From a virus (Duplodnaviria; Heunggongvirae; Uroviricota; Caudoviricetes): 20,599 bases of DNA. The stretch lies in the IMG/VR virus record IMGVR_UViG_3300049825_000338, positions 1-20,599 of that record. The stretch is one strand, 5' to 3'. Shown in pieces: positions 1 to 6,491 of this stretch. The position numbers and the translations under genes were made by a program. The notes under the pieces were generated by a model. The model saw only the letters and a list, made by a program, of their open reading frames with translations, had not been told where the DNA came from and did no database searches. The first letter of the stretch is position 1. Each line of letters starts with the position of its first letter.

Positions 1-87
1 TAAATCGTTACAACATCGGATGGCCTGGCGACATCCATAATGTTGCCAAAACCCAGTGGCGGAGTGCACTAGTCGTCACTGGGACTT

Positions 88-159
88 GGATGCGTGGCGC
101 AACGGTAGCGCAATTGCTTTACACGCAATTGGTTGGGGGTTCGAATCCCTCCGCATCTA
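88..159 (+). tRNA. tRNA-Val(TAC)
   Basis: Acceptor GGATGCG/CGCATCT, anticodon stem ATTGC/GCAAT, loop TT-TAC-AC, TTCGAAT T-loop. Confidence 0.93.
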
Positions 160-296
160 CTCAGGGAACAGCTAACGCTGGCCCGTTTCTAGACTGTGTT
201 ATCCCGAGCAGTCTGTAGTGCCGACGAAGGTGATCAACACCAGACGTCAACAGAGTAAGCATTTTTTCTGTACGTCATCGGGATAGTCGGCAACTT

Positions 297-370
297 GCTG
301 TGATGGACAAACAGGTAAAGTCACTACCCTCTCAAGGTAGAGTTTGCGGGTTCGACTCCCGTTCACAGTG
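297..370 (+). tRNA. tRNA-Glu(CTC)
   Basis: Acceptor GCTGTGA/TCACAGT, stem CTACC/GGTAG, loop CT-CTC-AA, TTCGACT T-loop. Confidence 0.93.
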
Positions 371-511
371 CGATCCCTCAGACGGATTACCGTACGCTCA
401 TAGGCGGATAGATGGTCTGAGCATCTTGCTGTAACGAAGTCCGTTTAGGGGCACCCGTAACTTTAGCCCCGTTTACCTTCATCCTGGGTAGTGATGTAAA
501 ACTGCCTTCTT

Positions 512-584
512 GGGTCAGTAGCTCCAACGGTAGAGCGAATGCTTTGCAAGCATTTGGTTGTCGGTTCGAATCCGACCTGATCCA
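512..584 (+). tRNA. tRNA-Ala(TGC)
   Basis: Acceptor GGGTCAG/CTGATCC with the G3:U70 Ala identity pair; loop TT-TGC-AA. Confidence 0.95.
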
Positions 585-711
585 CAATCCGGCACGTGCG
601 CAGGTATCCTTGACAGGACCAGCGTAACGACCGGACGCATTGAAGCTTTGAGTAAGCCTGAGAATTGTATTTCAGAGGCAGCAGGGAAGTCACGTCCTTG
701 TCGATGCATAA

Positions 712-785
712 CTGGTTGTAGGAAAATTGGTATCCCCACCTCGTTTGGGACGAGGATTTTGCGAGTTCGAGTCTCGCCAACCAGA
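712..785 (+). tRNA. tRNA-Pro(TGG)
   Basis: Acceptor CTGGTTG/CAACCAG, stem CCTCG/CGAGG, loop TT-TGG-GA. Confidence 0.93.
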
Positions 786-913
786 CAAATGGCGAACCCC
801 TCAGCACACAGTTGTGCTCGCGCCCGAGCGGAGGTCCGGTGCCTACTCCGGTAAGGTTCAATGCTATCAGGTAAAAATGTAGTACCGCTTCGCGGAAACC
901 AGATTTACCGCAT

Positions 914-981
914 ACGGTGGGCGCTGGGCACAGGGTTGTTTCCAAAACTACCCGTGACGGGTTCGATTCCTGTACACCGTG
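914..981 (+). tRNA. tRNA-Trp(CCA), atypical (reduced D arm, extended anticodon stem)
   Basis: Loop TT-CCA-AA, T arm ACGGG-TTCGATT-CCTGT, acceptor ACGGTG/CACCGT, disc G; 5' end may start at 910. Confidence 0.7.
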
Positions 982-1007
982 CTGGTTTCTGTACACCGTG
1001 CTGGTTT
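970..1007 (+). repeat. Perfect 19-nt tandem duplication of the tRNA-Trp 3' end
   Basis: CTGTACACCGTGCTGGTTT at 970-988 and 989-1007. Confidence 0.95.
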
Positions 1008-1067
1008 TGAGTCATTATGCCATTCAAAAATGTCGAACGGCAATGAGATCGCAAACACAACGATACT

Positions 1068-1140
1068 GCTTTTCTAGGCTAATGGATAAGCCAACAGACT
1101 TCTAATCTGTAATATGGGGGTTCGAGTCCCTCGAAAAGCA
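1068..1140 (+). tRNA. tRNA-Arg(TCT)
   Basis: Acceptor GCTTTTC/GAAAAGC, loop CT-TCT-AA, TTCGAGT T-loop. Confidence 0.94.
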
Positions 1141-1141
1141 C

Positions 1142-1228
1142 TGAAACGATGCGAAGATGGTGGTTACTTCTTTTCGACTAAGACTAGGGAGATGGCTCCC
1201 TTTCCACTGTCAGTCAGTTCACGTTTCA
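1142..1228 (+). ncRNA. Y RNA-like ncRNA, unit 1 (no tRNA-like domain)
   Basis: Terminal stem TGAAACG/CGTTTCA, ATGCGAA...GTTCA bulged helix, second stem GATGGTGG/CCACTGTC, TTACTTC, inner hairpin AGGGAG/CTCCCT. Confidence 0.7.
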
Positions 1229-1236
1229 AATTTCGC

Positions 1237-1330
1237 GGACGATGCGAAGGCGATGGTTACTTCTTCTACTATGAGCCGAGGGGGCACAGAAATGGCTGCC
1301 CCGATCTCCATTACCAAAGTGTTCACGTCC
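1237..1330 (+). ncRNA. Y RNA-like ncRNA, unit 2
   Basis: Stem GGACG/CGTCC, ATGCGAA...GTTCA, second stem GGCGATGG/CCATTACC (one mismatch), TTACTTC, inner hairpin GGGGCA/TGCCCC. Confidence 0.7.
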
Positions 1331-1339
1331 TCGTTTCTA

Positions 1340-1453
1340 GGCAGCGATGCGAATTTGTCGGCTACTTCCCAACCATTCAATGATAATCCTCAGCACTCGG
1401 GCAAAACCCGAACACGCTGGGGGCCATCCGATGAAGCTTTAGTTCACGCTGCC
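1340..1453 (+). ncRNA. Y RNA-like ncRNA, unit 3
   Basis: Stem GGCAGCG/CGCTGCC, ATGCGAA...GTTCA, second stem TTTGTCGG/CCGATGAA, CTACTTC, inner stems CCTCAGC/GCTGGGG and TCGGG/CCCGA. Confidence 0.7.
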
Positions 1454-1460
1454 GAGGTCT

Positions 1461-1535
1461 GGTGTGTTAGCTCAACGGTAGAGCACTTCCCTGTCGAGGA
1501 AGAAGTTACGGGTTCGAATCCCGTACACACCGCCA
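1461..1535 (+). tRNA. tRNA-Asp(GTC)
   Basis: Acceptor GGTGTGT/ACACACC, disc G, encoded CCA, loop CT-GTC-GA. Confidence 0.96.
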
Positions 1536-1538
1536 CAC

Positions 1539-1610
1539 GTCATTCTAGTGTTAGCGGTAACACATCACGCTTCCAACGTGGTATCATGGGTTCGAATCCC
1601 ATGAATGACT
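1539..1610 (+). tRNA. tRNA-Gly(TCC)
   Basis: Acceptor GTCATTC/GAATGAC, disc U, loop CT-TCC-AA. Confidence 0.95.
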
Positions 1611-2080
1611 CAACATGTGCCACCTGCAAAATCACAAAAACGTCTGCTGAGTTCTCAACAAGAACAAGAAATGGTGTGGTTATTCTTCAGTCGTCATGTA
1701 AGAGTTGCCATAAACTATACAGAAAAGTTCACTATGCAAATAATAGACAGCGATATCTAGATCGAACAAAACAAAACACAGAGAAGTATCGCGAAATTGC
1801 TGTGAATTATGTTAACGATATATTGTCAGTAAGCTCCTGCGCAGACTGCGGAGAAACTGACCCAGTCGTCCTTGATTTTGACCACGTGCATGGGGAAAAA
1901 TTAGCTAGCATTGCAAATCTTAAATGGAGACCGGAAGGGCCATCTATTAGTCGTCTTCGTAGTGAAATAGAAAAATGTGAAATACGATGCGCAAATTGCC
2001 ATCGTCGCCGTCACCACCAAGAGCGACGTAAGAAAGCACGAGAGTGTAGTTCAGCGGTAGAACACCTGCTTGCCAAGTAG
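1601..2080 (+). CDS. HNH endonuclease with N-terminal CxxC...CxxC zinc finger (probable free-standing homing endonuclease)
   Basis: CATC...CKSCH, then CADCG...DFDHV...CEIRCANCHRRRH HNH signature; in-frame ATGs at 1586 and 1601 lie inside tRNA-Gly(TCC); the ORF track's 1157 start runs through RNA genes. Confidence 0.8.
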   Translation: MNDSTCATCKITKTSAEFSTRTRNGVVILQSSCKSCHKLYRKVHYANNRQRYLDRTKQNTEKYREIAVNYVNDILSVSSCADCGETDPVVLDFDHVHGEKLASIANLKWRPEGPSISRLRSEIEKCEIRCANCHRRRHHQERRKKARECSSAVEHLLAK

Positions 2081-2110
2081 GATGCGAGGGTTCGACTCCC
2101 TTCACTCTCT
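2040..2110 (+). tRNA. tRNA-Gly(GCC)
   Basis: Acceptor GAGAGTG/CACTCTC, disc U, loop TT-GCC-AA. Confidence 0.94.
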
Positions 2111-2238
2111 CCGAAAGCCCCGTACTCGGCTCTGCTTAATTGTCATCCACCGGGCGACGAATGATCTAGAACGTTCGTCGGCATGCCAGTCCTGCACGCG
2201 TTCAGCGGTCACCTAGGCCTGATTAGGTATGGACACTT

Positions 2239-2309
2239 TGAGGTTTCGGCTAACGGTAAGCCAGGAGGTTTTGGCCCTCCGAATGAGGGTTCGACTCCTT
2301 CAGCCTCAA
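2239..2309 (+). tRNA. tRNA-Gln(TTG)
   Basis: Acceptor TGAGGTT/AGCCTCA, stem GGAGG/CCTCC, loop TT-TTG-GC. Confidence 0.92.
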
Positions 2310-2373
2310 CGAAGGATAGGCGATTGGCGGTAGAGCCAGATTCCTAGTAATAACTGGGGCAACCGCCCACTTT

Positions 2374-2451
2374 GCTGCGTTAGACAAATTAGGTAAAGTC
2401 ACCAGGCTTTCACCCTGGAATTTACGGGTTCGATTCCCGTACGCAGTTCCA
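2374..2451 (+). tRNA. tRNA-Glu(TTC)
   Basis: Acceptor GCTGCGT/ACGCAGT, encoded CCA, loop CT-TTC-AC. Confidence 0.94.
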
Positions 2452-2455
2452 TTTC

Positions 2456-2529
2456 GGTTCTATAGCTCAATCTGGTAGAGCAGCATTCTGATAAGATGCA
2501 TGTTGGAGGTTCAAATCCTTCTAGGACCA
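2456..2529 (+). tRNA. tRNA-Ile(GAT)
   Basis: Acceptor GGTTCTA/TAGGACC, loop CT-GAT-AA. Confidence 0.94.
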
Positions 2530-2534
2530 CTCAC

Positions 2535-2610
2535 GGCTCTCAGGTGTCCTGTTGGATAGGCACGTCTGCGTGAAGCCCAGAAGGGCAGGGTTCGATTCCC
2601 TGGGGAGCCA
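2535..2610 (+). tRNA. tRNA-Phe(GAA), atypical anticodon arm
   Basis: Acceptor GGCTCTC/GGGAGCC, disc A; stem TCTG/CAGA with C:C mismatch at 31:39, loop GT-GAA-GC; intact T arm. Confidence 0.7.
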
Positions 2611-2612
2611 CA

Positions 2613-2621
2613 TGGTAAACT
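2613..2621 (+). promoter_or_regulatory. Candidate extended -10 promoter for a leaderless transcript
   Basis: TGG-TAAACT followed by 6 nt and then ATG 2628; no Shine-Dalgarno. Confidence 0.45.
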
Positions 2622-2627
2622 AGGTAC

Positions 2628-2981
2628 ATGAAAAAATTTCGTGCAATACTAGTGTCACTAATCTTGTCAATTTCTAGCATAACTGGTGTTATTGCTGCAT
2701 CAGATGTCAAGCCTGTGTTGGCCTTGACAGACTGCGACTTCAACGGTCAGTTCTATGTTGGAGGTAACTACGCTTCAGTTATTTGTCATCGTGCGGGTGG
2801 TTACGACTGGATACGCGTTAGAGCAACTTGCCAGGATAAAGTATTCATTCCTAATCACGGATGGATTATTAGGTCGACTTATACAGTCAATGGGTCTTGG
2901 GTACCGTTCGGACGCACATCAAAGGTTGCCTGCAATAATACAGCACATAAATTTACAAAAATATGGCTAGAAACCGAGTAG
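2628..2981 (+). CDS. Small secreted protein with signal peptide and 4 Cys (hypothetical)
   Basis: MKKFR + hydrophobic core + A-x-A sites; four Cys in the mature part; fits exactly between tRNA-Phe and tRNA-Cys. Confidence 0.8.
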   Translation: MKKFRAILVSLILSISSITGVIAASDVKPVLALTDCDFNGQFYVGGNYASVICHRAGGYDWIRVRATCQDKVFIPNHGWIIRSTYTVNGSWVPFGRTSKVACNNTAHKFTKIWLETE

Positions 2982-3056
2982 GCGTCGCGAGGGGGATGGA
3001 GACCCGTCTGCCTGCAAAGCAGATTCAACGCAGTTCGATTCTGCGGCGGCGCTCCA
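2982..3056 (+). tRNA. tRNA-Cys(GCA)
   Basis: Acceptor GCGTCGC/GCGGCGC, disc U73, encoded CCA, loop CT-GCA-AA. Confidence 0.93.
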
Positions 3057-3062
3057 TCTTAG

Positions 3063-3136
3063 GCGCTTGTAGCTCAATTAGGTAGAGCAGTGGACTTTTA
3101 ATCCAACGGTTGGGGGTTCGATTCCCTCCGGGCGCA
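3063..3136 (+). tRNA. tRNA-Lys(TTT)
   Basis: Acceptor GCGCTTG/CGGGCGC, loop CT-TTT-AA. Confidence 0.95.
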
Positions 3137-3345
3137 CAATCCGCATGGGGAGATCATCACACCATGACGTCAGGTATGCGGCGATAGCATATCGGTTAGC
3201 TGATAGACCGTTTATCAGCTTGGATTCGTCTCCAAATACACAAGCACGATAAGGGGTGAAAAATCGCTTAGCCCCCGCCGTTAGATCACGGCGCTTCGCA
3301 TTATGAAGTTTTTAGAAGTAGAGGAGTGATGTCCTCAGATCACAA

Positions 3346-3418
3346 CGGTGTGTAGCACAACTGGTAGTGCCCCTGACTCTTAATCAGGCTTGTGCGGGTT
3401 CGAGTCCCGCTGCACCGA
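3346..3418 (+). tRNA. tRNA-Lys(CTT)
   Basis: Acceptor CGGTGTG/TGCACCG, stem CCTGA/TCAGG, loop CT-CTT-AA. Confidence 0.94.
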
Positions 3419-3419
3419 C

Positions 3420-3505
3420 TGCAAGGTAGAGAAGTCCGGTCCATCTCGTCAGCCTCATAAGCTGGAAAACGCCTTTAAGTGGTTCAAATCCCGCCCTTGC
3501 CTCCA
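3420..3505 (+). tRNA. tRNA-Met(CAT), initiator-like, with disrupted T stem
   Basis: U1:C72 mismatch, loop CT-CAT-AA, TTCAAAT T-loop, encoded CCA; extra CTTTAAGT in the 5' T-stem region. Confidence 0.7.
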
Positions 3506-3509
3506 TTTC

Positions 3510-3582
3510 GGTGCTGTGTACTGTTGGCAGTACAGGTTCTCCCATACGGAACCCTTCGGTCGTTCGATTCGACTCAGCGCCA
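3510..3582 (+). tRNA. Atypical tRNA with CAT anticodon (Met or Ile2, identity unresolved)
   Basis: Acceptor GGTGCTG/CAGCGCC; D stem GTACTG/CAGTAC with 4-nt loop; 6-bp anticodon stem GGTTCT/GGAACC; loop CC-CAT-AC; T arm GGTCG-TTCGATT-CGACT. Confidence 0.7.
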
Positions 3583-3597
3583 CGAAAACATCTTCTT

Positions 3598-3669
3598 TCC
3601 GGGGTAGTTCAATGGTAGAACACCGAACTGTTAATTCGGTTGTTGGGGGTTCGATCCCTCCTCCCGGAG
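3598..3669 (+). tRNA. tRNA-Asn(GTT)
   Basis: Acceptor TCCGGGG/TCCCGGA, disc G, loop CT-GTT-AA. Confidence 0.95.
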
Positions 3670-3676
3670 CGCTTAG

Positions 3677-3749
3677 GCATCACTAGCTCAATGGATAGAG
3701 CAACAGTTTTCGAAACTGTGTGTTGGCGGTTCAAGTCCGTCGTGATGCG
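3677..3749 (+). tRNA. tRNA-Arg(TCG)
   Basis: Acceptor GCATCAC/GTGATGC, loop TT-TCG-AA. Confidence 0.93.
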
Positions 3750-3751
3750 CT

Positions 3752-3828
3752 GTGGTCGTAGCTCAATCTGGTAGAGCGCGTGGATGTGGCCCACGTCGTT
3801 GAGGGTTCAAGTCCCTTCGATCACCCCA
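3752..3828 (+). tRNA. tRNA-His(GTG)
   Basis: Acceptor GTGGTCG/CGATCAC, disc C73, encoded CCA, loop AT-GTG-GC. Confidence 0.94.
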
Positions 3829-3832
3829 TCTT

Positions 3833-3907
3833 GGGAATGTAACTCAACGGATAGAGTAACGGTCTACGAAGCCGTAAGTGGGGGTTCGATTCCCTTCATT
3901 CCTGCCA
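3833..3907 (+). tRNA. tRNA-Arg(ACG)
   Basis: Acceptor GGGAATG/CATTCCT, encoded CCA, loop CT-ACG-AA. Confidence 0.95.
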
Positions 3908-3908
3908 T

Positions 3909-3981
3909 GCCCCTGTAGTTCAACGGTTAGAACGTCATGCTTATCACATGGTTGTTGCGGGTTCAATTCCTGCCGGGGGTA
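3909..3981 (+). tRNA. tRNA-Ile(TAT), with C37
   Basis: Acceptor GCCCCTG/CGGGGGT, disc A, stem TCATG/CATGG, loop CT-TAT-CA. Confidence 0.75.
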
Positions 3982-3985
3982 CTTT

Positions 3986-4064
3986 GCGCTAGTGGCGGAA
4001 TGGCAGACGCAGGAGACTTAAACTCTCCGGGGAAACCGTGCAGGTTCGACTCCTGTCTGGCGCA
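3986..4064 (+). tRNA. tRNA-Leu(TAA)
   Basis: Acceptor GCGCTAG/CTGGCGC, loop CT-TAA-AC, variable arm. Confidence 0.93.
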
Positions 4065-4069
4065 CACAA

Positions 4070-4143
4070 GTTTGCCTAGCCCAACTGGCAGAGGCGTCAC
4101 TTTCAAAAAGTGATAGGTGAGAGTTCGAATCTCTCGGCAAACA
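4070..4143 (+). tRNA. tRNA-Leu(CAA), short variable region
   Basis: Acceptor GTTTGCC/GGCAAAC, loop TT-CAA-AA, 5-nt variable region. Confidence 0.88.
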
Positions 4144-4205
4144 CAGTTAAGATTGAGGCGGAATTTGAACGTGTTCAGTATACTTTCCGCCGTATAGTCA
4201 ACTAA

Positions 4206-4279
4206 GAACTTGTAGCCCAATTGGTAGAGGCGCAACGATGAGAGCGTTGTTAGTGAGGGTTCGAATCCCTCCAAGTTCA
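4206..4279 (+). tRNA. tRNA-Leu(GAG), short variable region
   Basis: Acceptor GAACTTG/CAAGTTC, loop AT-GAG-AG, 5-nt variable region. Confidence 0.88.
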
Positions 4280-4294
4280 CTTACCGGTATACTT

Positions 4295-4376
4295 GTGAGT
4301 ATGGTGGAATTGGCAGACACGCTACCCTTAGAAGGTAGTGCCGAACGGCATGAGAGTTCGAATCTCTCTACTCATA
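4295..4376 (+). tRNA. tRNA-Leu(TAG)
   Basis: Acceptor GTGAGTA/TACTCAT, loop CT-TAG-AA, variable arm GCCG-AA-CGGC. Confidence 0.94.
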
Positions 4377-4401
4377 CAAGATGTAAATATTCATTCTCAA
4401 A

Positions 4402-4540
4402 TGTAGTGATGTGTAGAAGTGGGTTACTTCTCTTTGGCAGACGTGGTAGCAGGTTCGATTCCTGTCACGGTGACTTTCGCCGCCGTGTAGCTCATCGGTA
4501 GAGCACGTAAAATTTCCCGTTTCGATTTGTTCACACTACA
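4402..4540 (+). ncRNA. yrlA: YrlA-like Y RNA (circularly permuted tRNA mimic on a Ro60-binding-type stem)
   Basis: Outer stems TGTAGTG/CACTACA and GAAGTGGG/CCCGTTTC, TTACTTC motif; then ACGT/ACGT helix enclosing T arm (GCAGG-TTCGATT-CCTGT), loop-closed acceptor-like stem (CACGG/CCGTG), TA and D arm (GCTC-ATCGGTA-GAGC), in T-AS-D order. Confidence 0.85.
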
Positions 4541-4544
4541 ACAT

Positions 4545-4618
4545 TCCGGTTTAGTTCAATTGGTAGAACGTCTCCCTCTGGAGGAGAATGCTTGGGGGTT
4601 CGAGTCCTCCAACCGGAA
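4545..4618 (+). tRNA. tRNA-Gln(CTG)
   Basis: Acceptor TCCGGTT/AACCGGA, stem TCTCC/GGAGA, loop CT-CTG-GA. Confidence 0.9.
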
Positions 4619-4721
4619 CGCATCATGCTGTGTGGCCATTTGCGAACACTTGAGCCGCACACTGTATTGACGAGTACAGTGTCAGAAACATAATTAACTT
4701 CTTTCAGCATGACAGCATCTT

Positions 4722-4804
4722 GGAGAGTAGCGCGGAAAGGTCTGCAACCAGTCTTGAAAACTGGGCCAGGGTTACACCTGAGGGTTCGATTCCTTTACTC
4801 TCCG
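4722..4804 (+). tRNA. tRNA-Ser(TGA)
   Basis: Acceptor GGAGAGT/ACTCTCC, disc G, loop CT-TGA-AA, long variable arm. Confidence 0.93.
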
Positions 4805-4806
4805 CT

Positions 4807-4888
4807 GGAACGGTGGCGCAACTGGAAACGCAGCTACCTGCTAAGTAGTCGGCTGAAAGGCCTCTGAGTTCGAGTCTCAGTCGTTCCG
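4807..4888 (+). tRNA. tRNA-Ser(GCT)
   Basis: Acceptor GGAACGG/TCGTTCC, disc G, loop CT-GCT-AA, long variable arm. Confidence 0.93.
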
Positions 4889-4931
4889 CAAAAAACCCCG
4901 AAGTTGTGACGGCGTTCACTTCGTAAGCCTC

Positions 4932-5007
4932 GCCGGTTTAGCTCAGTTGGAAGAGCGCCATACTTGTAATATGGATGTCACGGGTTCGACTCCTGTAACC
5001 GGCTCCA
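4932..5007 (+). tRNA. tRNA-Thr(TGT)
   Basis: Acceptor GCCGGTT/AACCGGC, encoded CCA, loop CT-TGT-AA. Confidence 0.95.
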
Positions 5008-5040
5008 CCAAAAAACTCAACGCTCTCAGGAAAGATCATT

Positions 5041-5556
5041 ATGCAAGTACTCGTTCTTGATACCAGTTACAATCCAGTGGGCGTTATCTCTCCAGAGAGA
5101 GCCGTCACTCTGATCCTTACCGGACGTGCTCACACAGCACATGATTCCGATGTGGTCTGGCGTTCACCGTCAATGATGATTACCGTTCCTTCTGTGATTC
5201 GTTTGTTAGCTCAGATGTACATCAAACGAAAGCGTAATATGCAGTGGTCTAAGCGCGGCGTGATGATGCGAGACGGACACATTTGTCAGTTTGCTCATTG
5301 TGGAGGAAAGGCTACAACTATCGAACACCTTCAGCCAACCTCACGAGGTGGCGAAGCTCGTTCCTGGGAGAACACTGTAGCGGCCTGTAAGGCCTGCAAC
5401 GGCCGCAAGGCTGACAAGACTCTAGAAGAGATAGGATGGAAGCTTAGACGTAAGCCCAAGACTCCTGTCGGTCTCATGGTCGCTACCAAGAATCCTCCAG
5501 AAGAGTGGGCTATCTACGTTCCAGAACTGTCTTGGAGGTTTGAGCCAGCTCGCTAG
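5041..5556 (+). CDS. HNH endonuclease (McrA-like family)
   Basis: VLVLDTSY.P N-terminus; RDGHICQFAHCG...TIEHLQPTSRGG...WENTVAACKACNGRKAD HNH motif; AGGAAAG RBS. Confidence 0.9.
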   Translation: MQVLVLDTSYNPVGVISPERAVTLILTGRAHTAHDSDVVWRSPSMMITVPSVIRLLAQMYIKRKRNMQWSKRGVMMRDGHICQFAHCGGKATTIEHLQPTSRGGEARSWENTVAACKACNGRKADKTLEEIGWKLRRKPKTPVGLMVATKNPPEEWAIYVPELSWRFEPAR

Positions 5557-6491
5557 GACGCTACAATAAGACAGTATGCAGCGCCTCCAGCGCCTCCGTT
5601 GCCGCCAGAAACGACACCAGCACCACCACCACCACCGCCAGAACCAGGAGCACCGGCTCCTCCGGTTCCTCCGCTGAGTCCAGCTGTGTTAGTAGACCCT
5701 CCTCCTCCTCCGCCAGCAGATATCCAAGGAATGAAGGGATTTTGATTGTAGAATGACCCGAAAGCGCCATTGCCACCACCAGCAGTCCCACCAGCAATAG
5801 CTGGGATTGTTGTTCCAGAAAAAATGTACTGACCACCAGCAAAATCAGCTGACTGCGATCCTGCTCCTCCCGCTCCTCCGCCTGTTAGCGCTGAACCGGA
5901 AGCGGCCCCACCGACAGAACCTGCCGATGCTCCACCTGCTATGGCCGTTCCGCCTATAACTGCCACCCAAGAAGTGGATAAGCCGATGAAGATACCGTTA
6001 GTAGATGTTGCAATAGTGCCCGCAGTTCCGAGCGCTCCACCGGCAGCGTTAGAGCCACCTTGACCACCCCCGGCGTCAGCTGATCCTGATACGAGCACCC
6101 ATTCTCCCAGGGCTGTTGCGGAAGGTCTAATTGCTATAGCCGATCGCGCTCCCACCCCGCCAGCAGAGCCAGCGGCTCCGCCAGTTCCCCCTTGAGGTAT
6201 ATACAGGTATAGCGTATCCGGCAAAAGATAAAGAGGAAATCGTGCTCGTACAATGCAGGCACTGCCACCTCCACCTCCACCGCCCCCAGCAGACCCAACA
6301 GTCTTAGTAAATCCTCCTCCTCCTCCTCCACCAGCGCCGACAAGAAAGACGTCAATGAACTGACATCCCGCTACCCACGACTTGCTCCACGGAATCCACG
6401 CGTTAGTAGATGAAATAGCAAGGTTTTGTGATGTGCCGATGTACTCGAATATTCTGTCGGATTGATCAGCTAGGAAAAGACCTTCGGCCAT
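5553..6491 (-). CDS. Glycine-rich virion protein (fiber/minor structural-like)
   Basis: VGAGGGGGGG and GGGGGGS repeats typical of phage glycine-rich virion proteins; ATG 6491 (MAEGLF) sits just after the upstream gene's stop, preferred over the 6563 start. Confidence 0.75.
   Translation of the reverse strand: MAEGLFLADQSDRIFEYIGTSQNLAISSTNAWIPWSKSWVAGCQFIDVFLVGAGGGGGGGFTKTVGSAGGGGGGGGSACIVRARFPLYLLPDTLYLYIPQGGTGGAAGSAGGVGARSAIAIRPSATALGEWVLVSGSADAGGGQGGSNAAGGALGTAGTIATSTNGIFIGLSTSWVAVIGGTAIAGGASAGSVGGAASGSALTGGGAGGAGSQSADFAGGQYIFSGTTIPAIAGGTAGGGNGAFGSFYNQNPFIPWISAGGGGGGSTNTAGLSGGTGGAGAPGSGGGGGGAGVVSGGNGGAGGAAYCLIVAS

What the first reader, a model, noticed from the sequence alone, without database searches (positions are those of the whole stretch)
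1142..1453. Three tandem, diverged Y RNA-like genes lacking the tRNA-mimic domain
Seen: three units of 87, 94 and 114 nt share CG-ATGCGAA-N5-6-GG(T/C)TACTTC...GTTCA-CG. Their helices differ in sequence but keep pairing: terminal stems GAAACG/CGTTTC, GGACG/CGTCC, GGCAGCG/CGCTGCC; second stems GATGGTGG/CCACTGTC, GGCGATGG/CCATTACC, TTTGTCGG/CCGATGAA. The conserved core pairs as U-A, G-C, bulged C, G-U, A-U. A pyrimidine-rich stretch and a variable hairpin follow. Known: the Ro60-binding helix of Y RNAs has a bulged C followed by G-U and A-U pairs, and Y RNA loops are pyrimidine-rich. The TTACTTC and GTTCAC motifs are shared with the YrlA-like RNA at 4402, so the phage appears to carry a four-member Y RNA family. 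Inference: these cargo-swapped Y RNAs could decoy host Ro60 (Rsr) and its PNPase/RtcB-linked RNA decay or repair, or give a phage Ro60 different adaptors. No Ro60/TROVE gene is in this window. Phage YrlA is known; I know of no description of a tandem tRNA-less set like this.
Basis: partly seen in the sequence, partly recalled or inferred. Interest (0 to 1): 0.85.

Follow-up and report, generated by a model that had tools for sequence, protein, structure and literature searches.

The report
Three phage Y-RNA-like genes without tRNA domain
Inside a phage's tRNA gene cluster sit three small RNA genes that carry the docking stem of "Y RNAs", the partners of the RNA-handling protein Ro60. The phage encodes its own Ro60 elsewhere in the genome, so this is a real but fairly ordinary new example of a known phage RNA-protein system.

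Summary
Units at 1142-1228, 1237-1330 and 1340-1453 share stem 1, AUGCGAA, an 8-bp stem 2, YUACUUC, a variable insert, stem 2', a 5-6 nt linker, GUUCA and stem 1'.

- **Not chance:** shuffled downstream sequence completes the design in only about 0.15% of trials per site.
- **Copies in the genome:** a covariance model built from tRNA-less units finds four copies in the 106-kb genome. These are the three units and the YrlA-like RNA at 4402-4540.
- **Same handle elsewhere:** 43 units share it across other phage contigs, in arrays of 3-7 that mix tRNA-less, T-arm-only and full tRNA-like cargo. Covariation is strong.
- **Link to Ro60:** 17 of 18 contigs with such units encode a TROVE/Ro60 protein, against 0 of 21 contigs with chance motif hits.
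this phage has its own Ro60 (TROVE+vWA, 509 aa) at genome 36,682-38,211. Its nearest solved relative is Thermus phage phiLo Ro60.

The units are therefore most likely adaptors for the phage's own Ro60, not decoys for a host Ro60. Tandem tRNA-less phage Y-like RNAs that bind phage Ro60 were published in 2025, and tRNA-less bacterial Y RNAs (YrlB, Yrn2) in 2014. This scan has also noted similar arrays on other DNA. The unusual point is location: inside the tRNA array, about 35 kb from Ro60 and on the other strand. Binding and expression are untested.

The parts
1142..1228 (+). Unit 1 (87 nt). Stem 1 is 1142-1148 with 1222-1228; AUGCGAA 1149-1155; stem 2 is 1156-1163 with 1204-1211; UUACUUC 1164-1170; 33-nt insert with hairpin GGGAG-AUGG-CUCCC; linker 1212-1216; GUUCA 1217-1221.
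   Evidence: model R1 71 bits; fold.
1237..1330 (+). Unit 2 (94 nt). Stem 1 is 1237-1241 with 1326-1330; AUGCGAA 1242-1248; stem 2 is 1249-1256 with 1308-1315 (7/8 paired); UUACUUC 1257-1263; 44-nt insert with a GC-rich hairpin; GUUCA 1321-1325.
   Evidence: R1 57.7 bits over 1235-1332.
1340..1453 (+). Unit 3 (114 nt). Stem 1 is 1340-1346 with 1447-1453; AUGCGAA 1347-1353; stem 2 is 1354-1361 with 1428-1435; CUACUUC 1362-1368; 59-nt insert with a long hairpin; 6-nt linker; GUUCA 1442-1446.
   Evidence: R1 51.4 bits; fold z-score -2.3.
4402..4540 (+). Fourth family member. It has the same two-helix handle (AUGUGUA, UUACUUC, GUUCA) but carries a permuted tRNA-like domain (T arm, then D arm), the YrlA type.
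   Evidence: Rfam YrlA 38.6 bits on 4441-4510, below the gathering score of 69. R1, not trained on it, gives 41.2 bits over 4402-4540.
1068..1141 (+). tRNA-Arg(UCU), ending 1-2 nt before stem 1 of unit 1. Its 3' processing would set the 5' end of unit 1 (inferred).
1461..1535 (+). tRNA-Asp(GUC), starting 7 nt after stem 1' of unit 3. RNase P cleavage at its 5' end would release the 3' end of unit 3 (inferred).

Best explanation
The three units are separate small non-coding RNA genes of the bacterial and phage Y-RNA-like class. They are the tRNA-less kind, like YrlB, Yrn2 and phiLo Yrl1/Yrl2.

**Design.** Each RNA closes its 5' and 3' ends into a two-helix handle: stem 1, then an asymmetric core with 5' AUGCGAA opposite GUUCA, then stem 2, then the invariant UACUUC. 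The handle is the docking site for Ro60. It displays a different cargo hairpin in each unit.

**Proposed steps, all inferred.**
1. The units are co-transcribed with the 31-tRNA array and released largely by the tRNA-processing enzymes that cut the flanking tRNAs.
2. Together with the YrlA-like RNA at 4402, they bind the phage's own Ro60 (genome 36,682-38,211, minus strand).
3. By analogy with D. radiodurans and Salmonella Rsr-Y RNA-PNPase, and with phiLo Ro60-Yrl-PNPase, the RNAs gate the Ro60 ring or tether it to host factors. The most likely factor is host PNPase, since the phage has none.
4. This redirects or dampens host RNA decay during infection, possibly together with the neighbouring RNA-repair genes.
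For: **Shown here.**
- Exact shared architecture with compensatory stems in all three units, at a chance completion rate of about 0.15% per site.
- Model R1 finds only these three plus the YrlA-like RNA in the whole genome.
- 43 family members occur in other phage contigs. 89% of pair cells are paired against 63% in shuffles. 216 cells show changes on both sides against 69. The covariation score is 0.68, against 0.17 in shuffles and 0.11 with slid partners.
- The CGAA motif and UACUUC are nearly or fully invariant.
- TROVE is present in 17 of 18 contigs carrying such units and in 0 of 21 contigs where the motif is a chance hit.
- None of 5 capsid-related contigs has TROVE. The three of their whole records searched with R1 give no hit, and no unit turned up in the loci fetched from all five.
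- In L014/L043 five units, the last two tRNA-less, lie directly upstream of the Ro60 ORF.
- The phage's own Ro60 has TROVE at 48.7 bits and Ro60-vWA at 21.7 bits, and its best solved relative is phiLo Ro60 at E 1.7e-21.

**From the literature.**
- A CGAA-containing 5' motif is the proposed Rsr site, and each studied bacterium has a second Y RNA without a full tRNA-like domain (PMC4201824).
- phiLo Ro60 binds two tRNA-less Yrl RNAs. CGAA mutation lowers binding, and the complex engages host PNPase (PMC12135203).
Against: - No binding or expression data exist. No RNA run was available.
- The units are about 35 kb from Ro60 and on the opposite strand. Described Y RNAs lie within 4 kb on the same strand.
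- The published motif GNCGAAN0-1G is matched only in part. The units read UGCGAAG, and unit 3 reads CGAAUUUG.
- No Rfam Y_RNA or YrlA hit was found.
- The core helix nucleotides are invariant, so covariation cannot confirm that pairing, and the U-A pair fails in most relatives.
- The alignment behind the covariation counts was fitted to the model.
- The nearest Ro60 relative found (L060, 31% identity) has no R1 hit in its 78%-complete record.
Confidence: 0.78

Rival explanations
1. The units are decoys or sponges for the host's Ro60 (Rsr). They would titrate it away from host RNA quality control or repair, independently of the phage Ro60.
For: The handle resembles the Ro60-binding module of YrlA, and four copies would give a high dose.
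Against: The phage encodes its own Ro60. The handle co-occurs with phage-borne TROVE genes in 17 of 18 contigs. The host is unknown. In the one studied case, phiLo, the host lacks Ro60 (PMC12135203).
Confidence: 0.08
2. The units are decaying duplicates of the YrlA gene that lost the tRNA-like domain. On this view they are non-functional remnants kept only because they sit in a transcribed array.
For: Units 1 and 2 look like a recent duplication, since their stem-2 strands cross-pair 7/8. The family clearly grows by tandem duplication.
Against: Stems 1 and 2 differ in sequence between units yet still pair, so changes were compensated. The core and UACUUC are intact in all three. tRNA-less units recur in unrelated arrays in L006, L007, L010, L014, L019, L030 and L039. 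tRNA-less Y RNAs are functional Ro60 ligands elsewhere (PMC4201824, PMC12135203).
Confidence: 0.07
3. The units are unrelated to Ro60. They could be processing or spacer elements of the tRNA precursor, ligands of another phage protein, or part of a protein-coding frame (ORFs 1114-1383 and 1157-2080).
For: Two reading frames stay open across the units, and the unit spacings of 93 and 105 nt are multiples of three.
Against: Both ORFs run through tRNA genes, and the 1114 start lies inside tRNA-Arg. No Pfam match is better than E 0.1. Conservation follows base pairing, not codons. The statistical tie to TROVE is strong.
Confidence: 0.04

Closest known systems
Yrl1 and Yrl2 of Thermus phage phiLo with phiRo60 (PMC12135203; PDB 9KOP, 9L5Y)
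   Same: Both are phage-encoded, adjacent Y-RNA-like RNAs with a stem-bulge-stem design, a CGAA motif and hairpin cargo, with no tRNA-like domain described. Both phages have their own Ro60 and no PNPase. phiRo60 is the best solved relative of this phage's Ro60 (E 1.7e-21).
   Different: The phiLo RNAs lie directly upstream of the Ro60 gene. Here there are three units plus a YrlA-type RNA inside a 31-tRNA array, about 35 kb from Ro60 on the other strand. Sequence similarity of the RNAs themselves was not compared because the phiLo sequences were not at hand.
YrlA (Rfam RF02553; Chen et al. 2014, PMC4201824)
   Same: The handle layout is shared: ends paired, a CGAA-containing 5' strand, a second stem, then an ACU-containing single strand. 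Relatives in the same arrays align to the full YrlA model. The window's own YrlA-like RNA carries the identical handle.
   Different: The defining T-arm and D-arm tRNA-like domain is absent, and there is no Rfam score at all.
YrlB of S. Typhimurium and M. smegmatis, and Yrn2 of D. radiodurans (PMC4201824)
   Same: They are second, smaller Ro60-bound RNAs encoded beside a tRNA-like Y RNA. They have paired ends, the CGAA-type motif and a pyrimidine-rich loop, without a full tRNA-like module.
   Different: Those are single genes within 2-4 kb of rsr in bacteria. No public model exists to test homology. M. smegmatis YrlB keeps a T arm, which the three units here lack.
Metazoan Y RNAs (Rfam RF00019)
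   Same: They share the general plan: terminal stem with a bulged conserved helix bound by Ro60, a pyrimidine-rich loop and variable upper parts.
   Different: No detectable sequence or structure match. The bulged-C position differs by one pair from the vertebrate helix as I recall it, which was not tested.

Membership tests
Bacterial/phage Y-RNA-like RNAs (Ro60 partners) | The 5' and 3' ends pair into a terminal stem that leads to a second stem across an asymmetric internal loop. | tested here: met
   Family covariation shows 89% of cells paired against 63% in shuffles.
Bacterial/phage Y-RNA-like RNAs (Ro60 partners) | A CGAA motif near the 5' end (PMC12135203). The full form is GNCGAAN0-1G (PMC4201824). 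| tested here: inconclusive
   CGAA is present in all three units and nearly invariant in 43 relatives. The first G of the long motif is U here (UGCGAA), and unit 3 has CGAAUUUG instead of CGAAN0-1G.
Bacterial/phage Y-RNA-like RNAs (Ro60 partners) | Encoded in a genome that has a Ro60/TROVE gene. | tested here: met
   The phage's own Ro60 lies at genome 36,682-38,211. 17 of 18 contigs with the handle have TROVE, against 0 of 21 controls.
Bacterial/phage Y-RNA-like RNAs (Ro60 partners) | Located within about 4 kb of Ro60 on the same strand (search criterion of Chen et al. 2014). | tested here: not met
   The units are at 1.1-1.5 kb on the plus strand and Ro60 is at 36.7-38.2 kb on the minus strand.
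Bacterial/phage Y-RNA-like RNAs (Ro60 partners) | Physical binding to Ro60. | not testable with these tools
   Needs a gel-shift assay (EMSA) or co-immunoprecipitation.
YrlA (RF02553) | A tRNA-like domain with T arm and D arm. | tested here: not met
   No ARAGORN or Rfam signal was found, and no T-loop or D-arm motif is present in the inserts.
YrlA (RF02553) | Score at or above the Rfam gathering threshold of 69 bits. | tested here: not met
   No hit at E<=10 on 1135-1460.
Metazoan Y RNA (RF00019) | A match to the Rfam model. | tested here: not met
   No hit at E<=10.

The most novel reading that the evidence does not exclude
The two-helix handle with its invariant UACUUC may be a portable Ro60-docking cassette that phages graft onto interchangeable cargo: plain hairpins, T arms, permuted tRNA bodies or even whole tRNAs. 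The cassettes would be scattered through tRNA arrays so that tRNA-processing enzymes release them. Each of the three distinct tRNA-less cargo hairpins would then recruit the phage Ro60 to a different host or phage factor, not only PNPase, for instance the neighbouring RNA-repair enzymes. That would give the phage a small programmable adaptor set.
Probability: 0.2. Interest if true: 0.6.

Novelty: new member of a known kind. Interest (0 to 1): 0.3.

Why it matters
The result adds a clean case of a phage with one Ro60 and four Y-like RNAs, three of them with non-tRNA cargo. Such RNAs can evidently hide inside tRNA arrays far from the Ro60 gene. Published searches would have missed them there, because they were limited to 4 kb around Ro60, discarded hits overlapping annotated tandem tRNA genes, and relied on the tRNA-like domain. 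The handle model also gives a simple way to find tRNA-less Y RNAs, which current Rfam models cannot see. The biology (Ro60 adaptors, probable hijacking of host PNPase) is already outlined in the literature, so the gain is incremental.

Tried and rejected
- **Rfam:** no hit on the units at gathering threshold or at E<=10.
- **BLAST against 50,697 phage records:** no match with the units (distant mode) or with 15.6 kb of the window (near mode).
- **MAFFT on the four own units:** it misaligned the 3' strands (A1). I replaced it with a descriptor scan and a model-guided alignment.
- **The search for related loci with the Ro60 protein:** one relative only, at 31% identity. Its record has no R1 hit.
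- **Capsid relatives (40-45% identity):** they carry large tRNA arrays but no units, and their GGYTACTTC hits are coding sequence.
- **Promoter/terminator scan of 1-5700:** counts at or below the shuffle background, so uninformative.
- **Sequencing runs:** no RNA holder listed. The only full holder is a freshwater sediment metagenome that may be the source. No reads were laid.
- **Protein-coding reading:** rejected.
- **Alternative UACUUC pairings:** pairing with GAAG of the core or with the linker was considered and dropped, because variation at those positions is not compensated.
- **Literature not available:** the Chen 2014 supplementary tables and two Wolin-lab reviews were not held.
- **RtcB and PNPase:** neither was found in the phage genome.

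Full report
**Context.** The window is the first 20.6 kb of a complete 106,011-bp IMG/VR phage record with terminal repeats. It is about 51% G+C. The only run holding the full stretch is a freshwater sediment metagenome that may itself be the source. Positions 88-5007 carry 31 plus-strand tRNA genes. These are followed on the minus strand by tail-like, major head, portal-family and ribonucleotide reductase genes, with the large terminase on the plus strand. The finding lies in the 320-nt gap between tRNA-Arg(UCU) (1068-1141) and tRNA-Asp (1461-1535).

**Observation.** A descriptor scan requires five things: a 5' motif close to ATGCGAA, an 8-nt strand, YTACTTC, a downstream partner strand with at least 7/8 pairs, and then a 2-9 nt linker, [GT]TTC[ACT] and at least 4 closing pairs.
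- Stem 2 pairs 8/8, 7/8 and 8/8, and stem 1 pairs 7, 5 and 7 bp.
- The strands differ between units but match their own partners best.
- With each 5' half held fixed and the downstream 210 nt shuffled, only 26-35 of 20,000 trials complete the design.
- GGYTACTTC occurs five times on both strands of the genome, four of them in these units and the RNA at 4402.
- None of the inserts has a T-loop or D-arm, and ARAGORN and Rfam see no tRNA or YrlA there even at E<=10.

**The units form one family with the YrlA-like RNA.** I built covariance model R1 from nine tRNA-less units, the three here plus six from other phage contigs (A2). Over the whole genome it finds four hits only. These are the three units (71, 57.7 and 51.4 bits) and 4402-4540 (41.2 bits, E about 1e-8), which was not in the training set. 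The inner part of that RNA matches Rfam YrlA at 38.6 bits, below the gathering score, through its permuted T and D arms.

**Relatives elsewhere.** The pattern ATGCGAA-N6-GGYTACTTC hits 39 viral contigs.
- About half of these hits are chance matches with no downstream structure. The rest are true units, usually preceded by CG.
- R1 finds 43 units at E<=0.001 in the loci held. All but one borderline hit are in contigs with a Ro60 gene. None is in 13 loci from capsid relatives or in chance-motif loci.
- Units come in tandem arrays: seven in L019, five each in L014, L007, L010 and L039, four in L011 and three in L030.
- Arrays mix units without any tRNA element (67-117 nt), units with a T arm only, and units with both T and D arms.
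- In L039 the units sit among tRNA genes, and in L006 they lie about 3 kb from a block of more than 20 tRNAs, as in this window.
- In L014/L043 five units lie directly upstream of the Ro60 ORF, and the last two are tRNA-less.

**Structure support.** The counts below come from the model-guided alignment of the 43 units.

| Measure | Observed | Shuffled partners | Slid partners |
|---|---|---|---|
| Pair cells that are standard pairs | 89.2% | 62.7% | 42-48% |
| Cells changed on both sides | 216 | 69 | 43-52 |
| Covariation score | 0.68 | 0.17 | about 0.11 |

- 15 of 19 pairs show double-sided changes.
- The alignment was fitted to the model, which inflates these numbers somewhat. The paralog comparison within this genome is independent of it.
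- In the core, G-C is invariant and G.U is kept in 38/43.
That pair is therefore not a family feature.
- The single-stranded UACUUC after stem 2 is invariant in 43/43, and CGAA is nearly so.

**Link to Ro60.**
- A TROVE search of the whole records gives a match in 17 of the 18 contigs that carry true units. The exception is L005. It gives a match in 0 of the 21 contigs where the motif is a chance hit.
- None of five contigs related by capsid protein has TROVE. The three whose whole records were searched with R1 have no hit, and no unit turned up in the loci fetched from all five.
- The window's own genome has a 509-aa ORF at 36,682-38,211 (minus strand) with TROVE at 48.7 bits and a Ro60-type vWA domain at 21.7 bits.
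- The best solved relative of that ORF is the Ro60 of Thermus phage phiLo, at E 1.7e-21, ahead of Xenopus Ro60.
- On the same strand, 3-6 kb downstream, lie NAMPT, an RlaP RNA-repair nucleotidyltransferase, a metallophosphoesterase and an RNA ligase.
- There is no RtcB and no PNPase in the phage.

**Known biology.**
- Chen et al. 2014 (PMC4201824) found YrlA-like RNAs near Ro60 in 254 bacteria and 22 phages and proposed the 5' GNCGAAN0-1G motif as the Rsr site.
[quoted passage not shown] M. smegmatis YrlB still keeps a possible T arm.
- Their search kept only hits within 4 kb of Ro60 and discarded hits overlapping annotated tandem tRNA genes. It would therefore have missed RNAs placed like these.
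- The 2025 phiLo study (PMC12135203) showed that a phage Ro60 binds two adjacent phage-encoded stem-bulge-stem RNAs, Yrl1 and Yrl2.
- That study also showed that mutating CGAA lowers binding, and that the complex engages host PNPase and slows it. The phiLo host has no Ro60.

**Interpretation.** The units are best read as tRNA-less Y-like RNAs that serve the phage's own Ro60.
- Shown: the architecture, its conservation, and its statistical tie to phage Ro60 genes.
- Inferred: release by tRNA-processing enzymes (unit 1 starts 1-2 nt after tRNA-Arg, and unit 3 ends 7 nt before tRNA-Asp), binding to Ro60, and recruitment of host PNPase or other factors through the three different cargo hairpins.
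- The host-decoy idea is not excluded but loses its rationale now that a phage Ro60 is known.
- Decayed duplicates are unlikely, given the compensated stems and the recurrence of tRNA-less units in unrelated arrays.
- A coding reading is rejected. The open frames run through tRNA genes and match no family.

**Novelty.** This is a new member of a known kind. The less usual points are the location inside a tRNA array about 35 kb from Ro60 on the opposite strand, three non-tRNA cargoes in a row, and the invariant UACUUC element, for which I found no description in the papers read. Earlier notes of this scan describe similar tandem Y-like arrays beside phage Ro60 genes on other DNA, so the scan has seen this system before. 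No expression or binding evidence could be obtained.

Noticed in passing
window 1601-2080 (+): The start of an HNH endonuclease ORF (PHROG 2255, E 7e-30) lies in the 3' end of tRNA-Gly(UCC). Its stop lies inside tRNA-Gly(GCC).
   Followed up: partly
window 4620-4721 (+): The spacer between tRNA-Gln and tRNA-Ser folds into a closed three-way structure with a perfect 10-bp hairpin (z -3.78, 0 of 200 shuffles as stable). It contains UGCGAA and UAACUUC but not in the Y-handle arrangement, and R1 does not hit it. It may be another small RNA.
   Followed up: partly
window 161-296 (+), especially 217-294: A structured spacer (z -3.26) whose terminal stem GCCGAC/GUCGGC is followed by GAAGG, so it reads GACGAAG, the published GNCGAAN0-1G motif. 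It could be a Y-like RNA of a different design and is not detected by R1. Spacers 586-711 (z -2.95) and 4145-4205 (z -2.73) are also unusually stable.
   Followed up: partly
L039:2481-2620 (-): A Y-handle unit whose cargo scores as an ordinary, non-permuted tRNA (Rfam tRNA 50.5 bits at 2507-2579), in a 94-kb Ro60-encoding phage contig where Y-like units alternate with tRNA genes.
   Followed up: no
own genome 30.2-38.2 kb (L046:4244-12212, minus strand): The Ro60 gene sits in one same-strand cluster with NAMPT, an RlaP nucleotidyltransferase, a metallophosphoesterase and an RNA ligase with a PHA02142 OB domain. This looks like a phage counterpart of the bacterial rsr-rtcBA linkage, built around a different ligase.
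   Followed up: partly
window 971-1007 (+): The 3' acceptor strand of tRNA-Trp (tgtacaccgtgctggttt) is directly repeated once, immediately after the gene.
   Followed up: no
window 2628-2981 (+): A 117-aa ORF with a signal-peptide-like N-terminus sits inside the tRNA array and has no PHROG match.
   Followed up: no
window 1114-1383 and 1157-2080 (+): Two reading frames stay open across the three units because the unit spacings (93 and 105 nt) are multiples of three. Gene callers could mis-annotate a repeat protein (RCExxGYF motif) here.
   Followed up: yes
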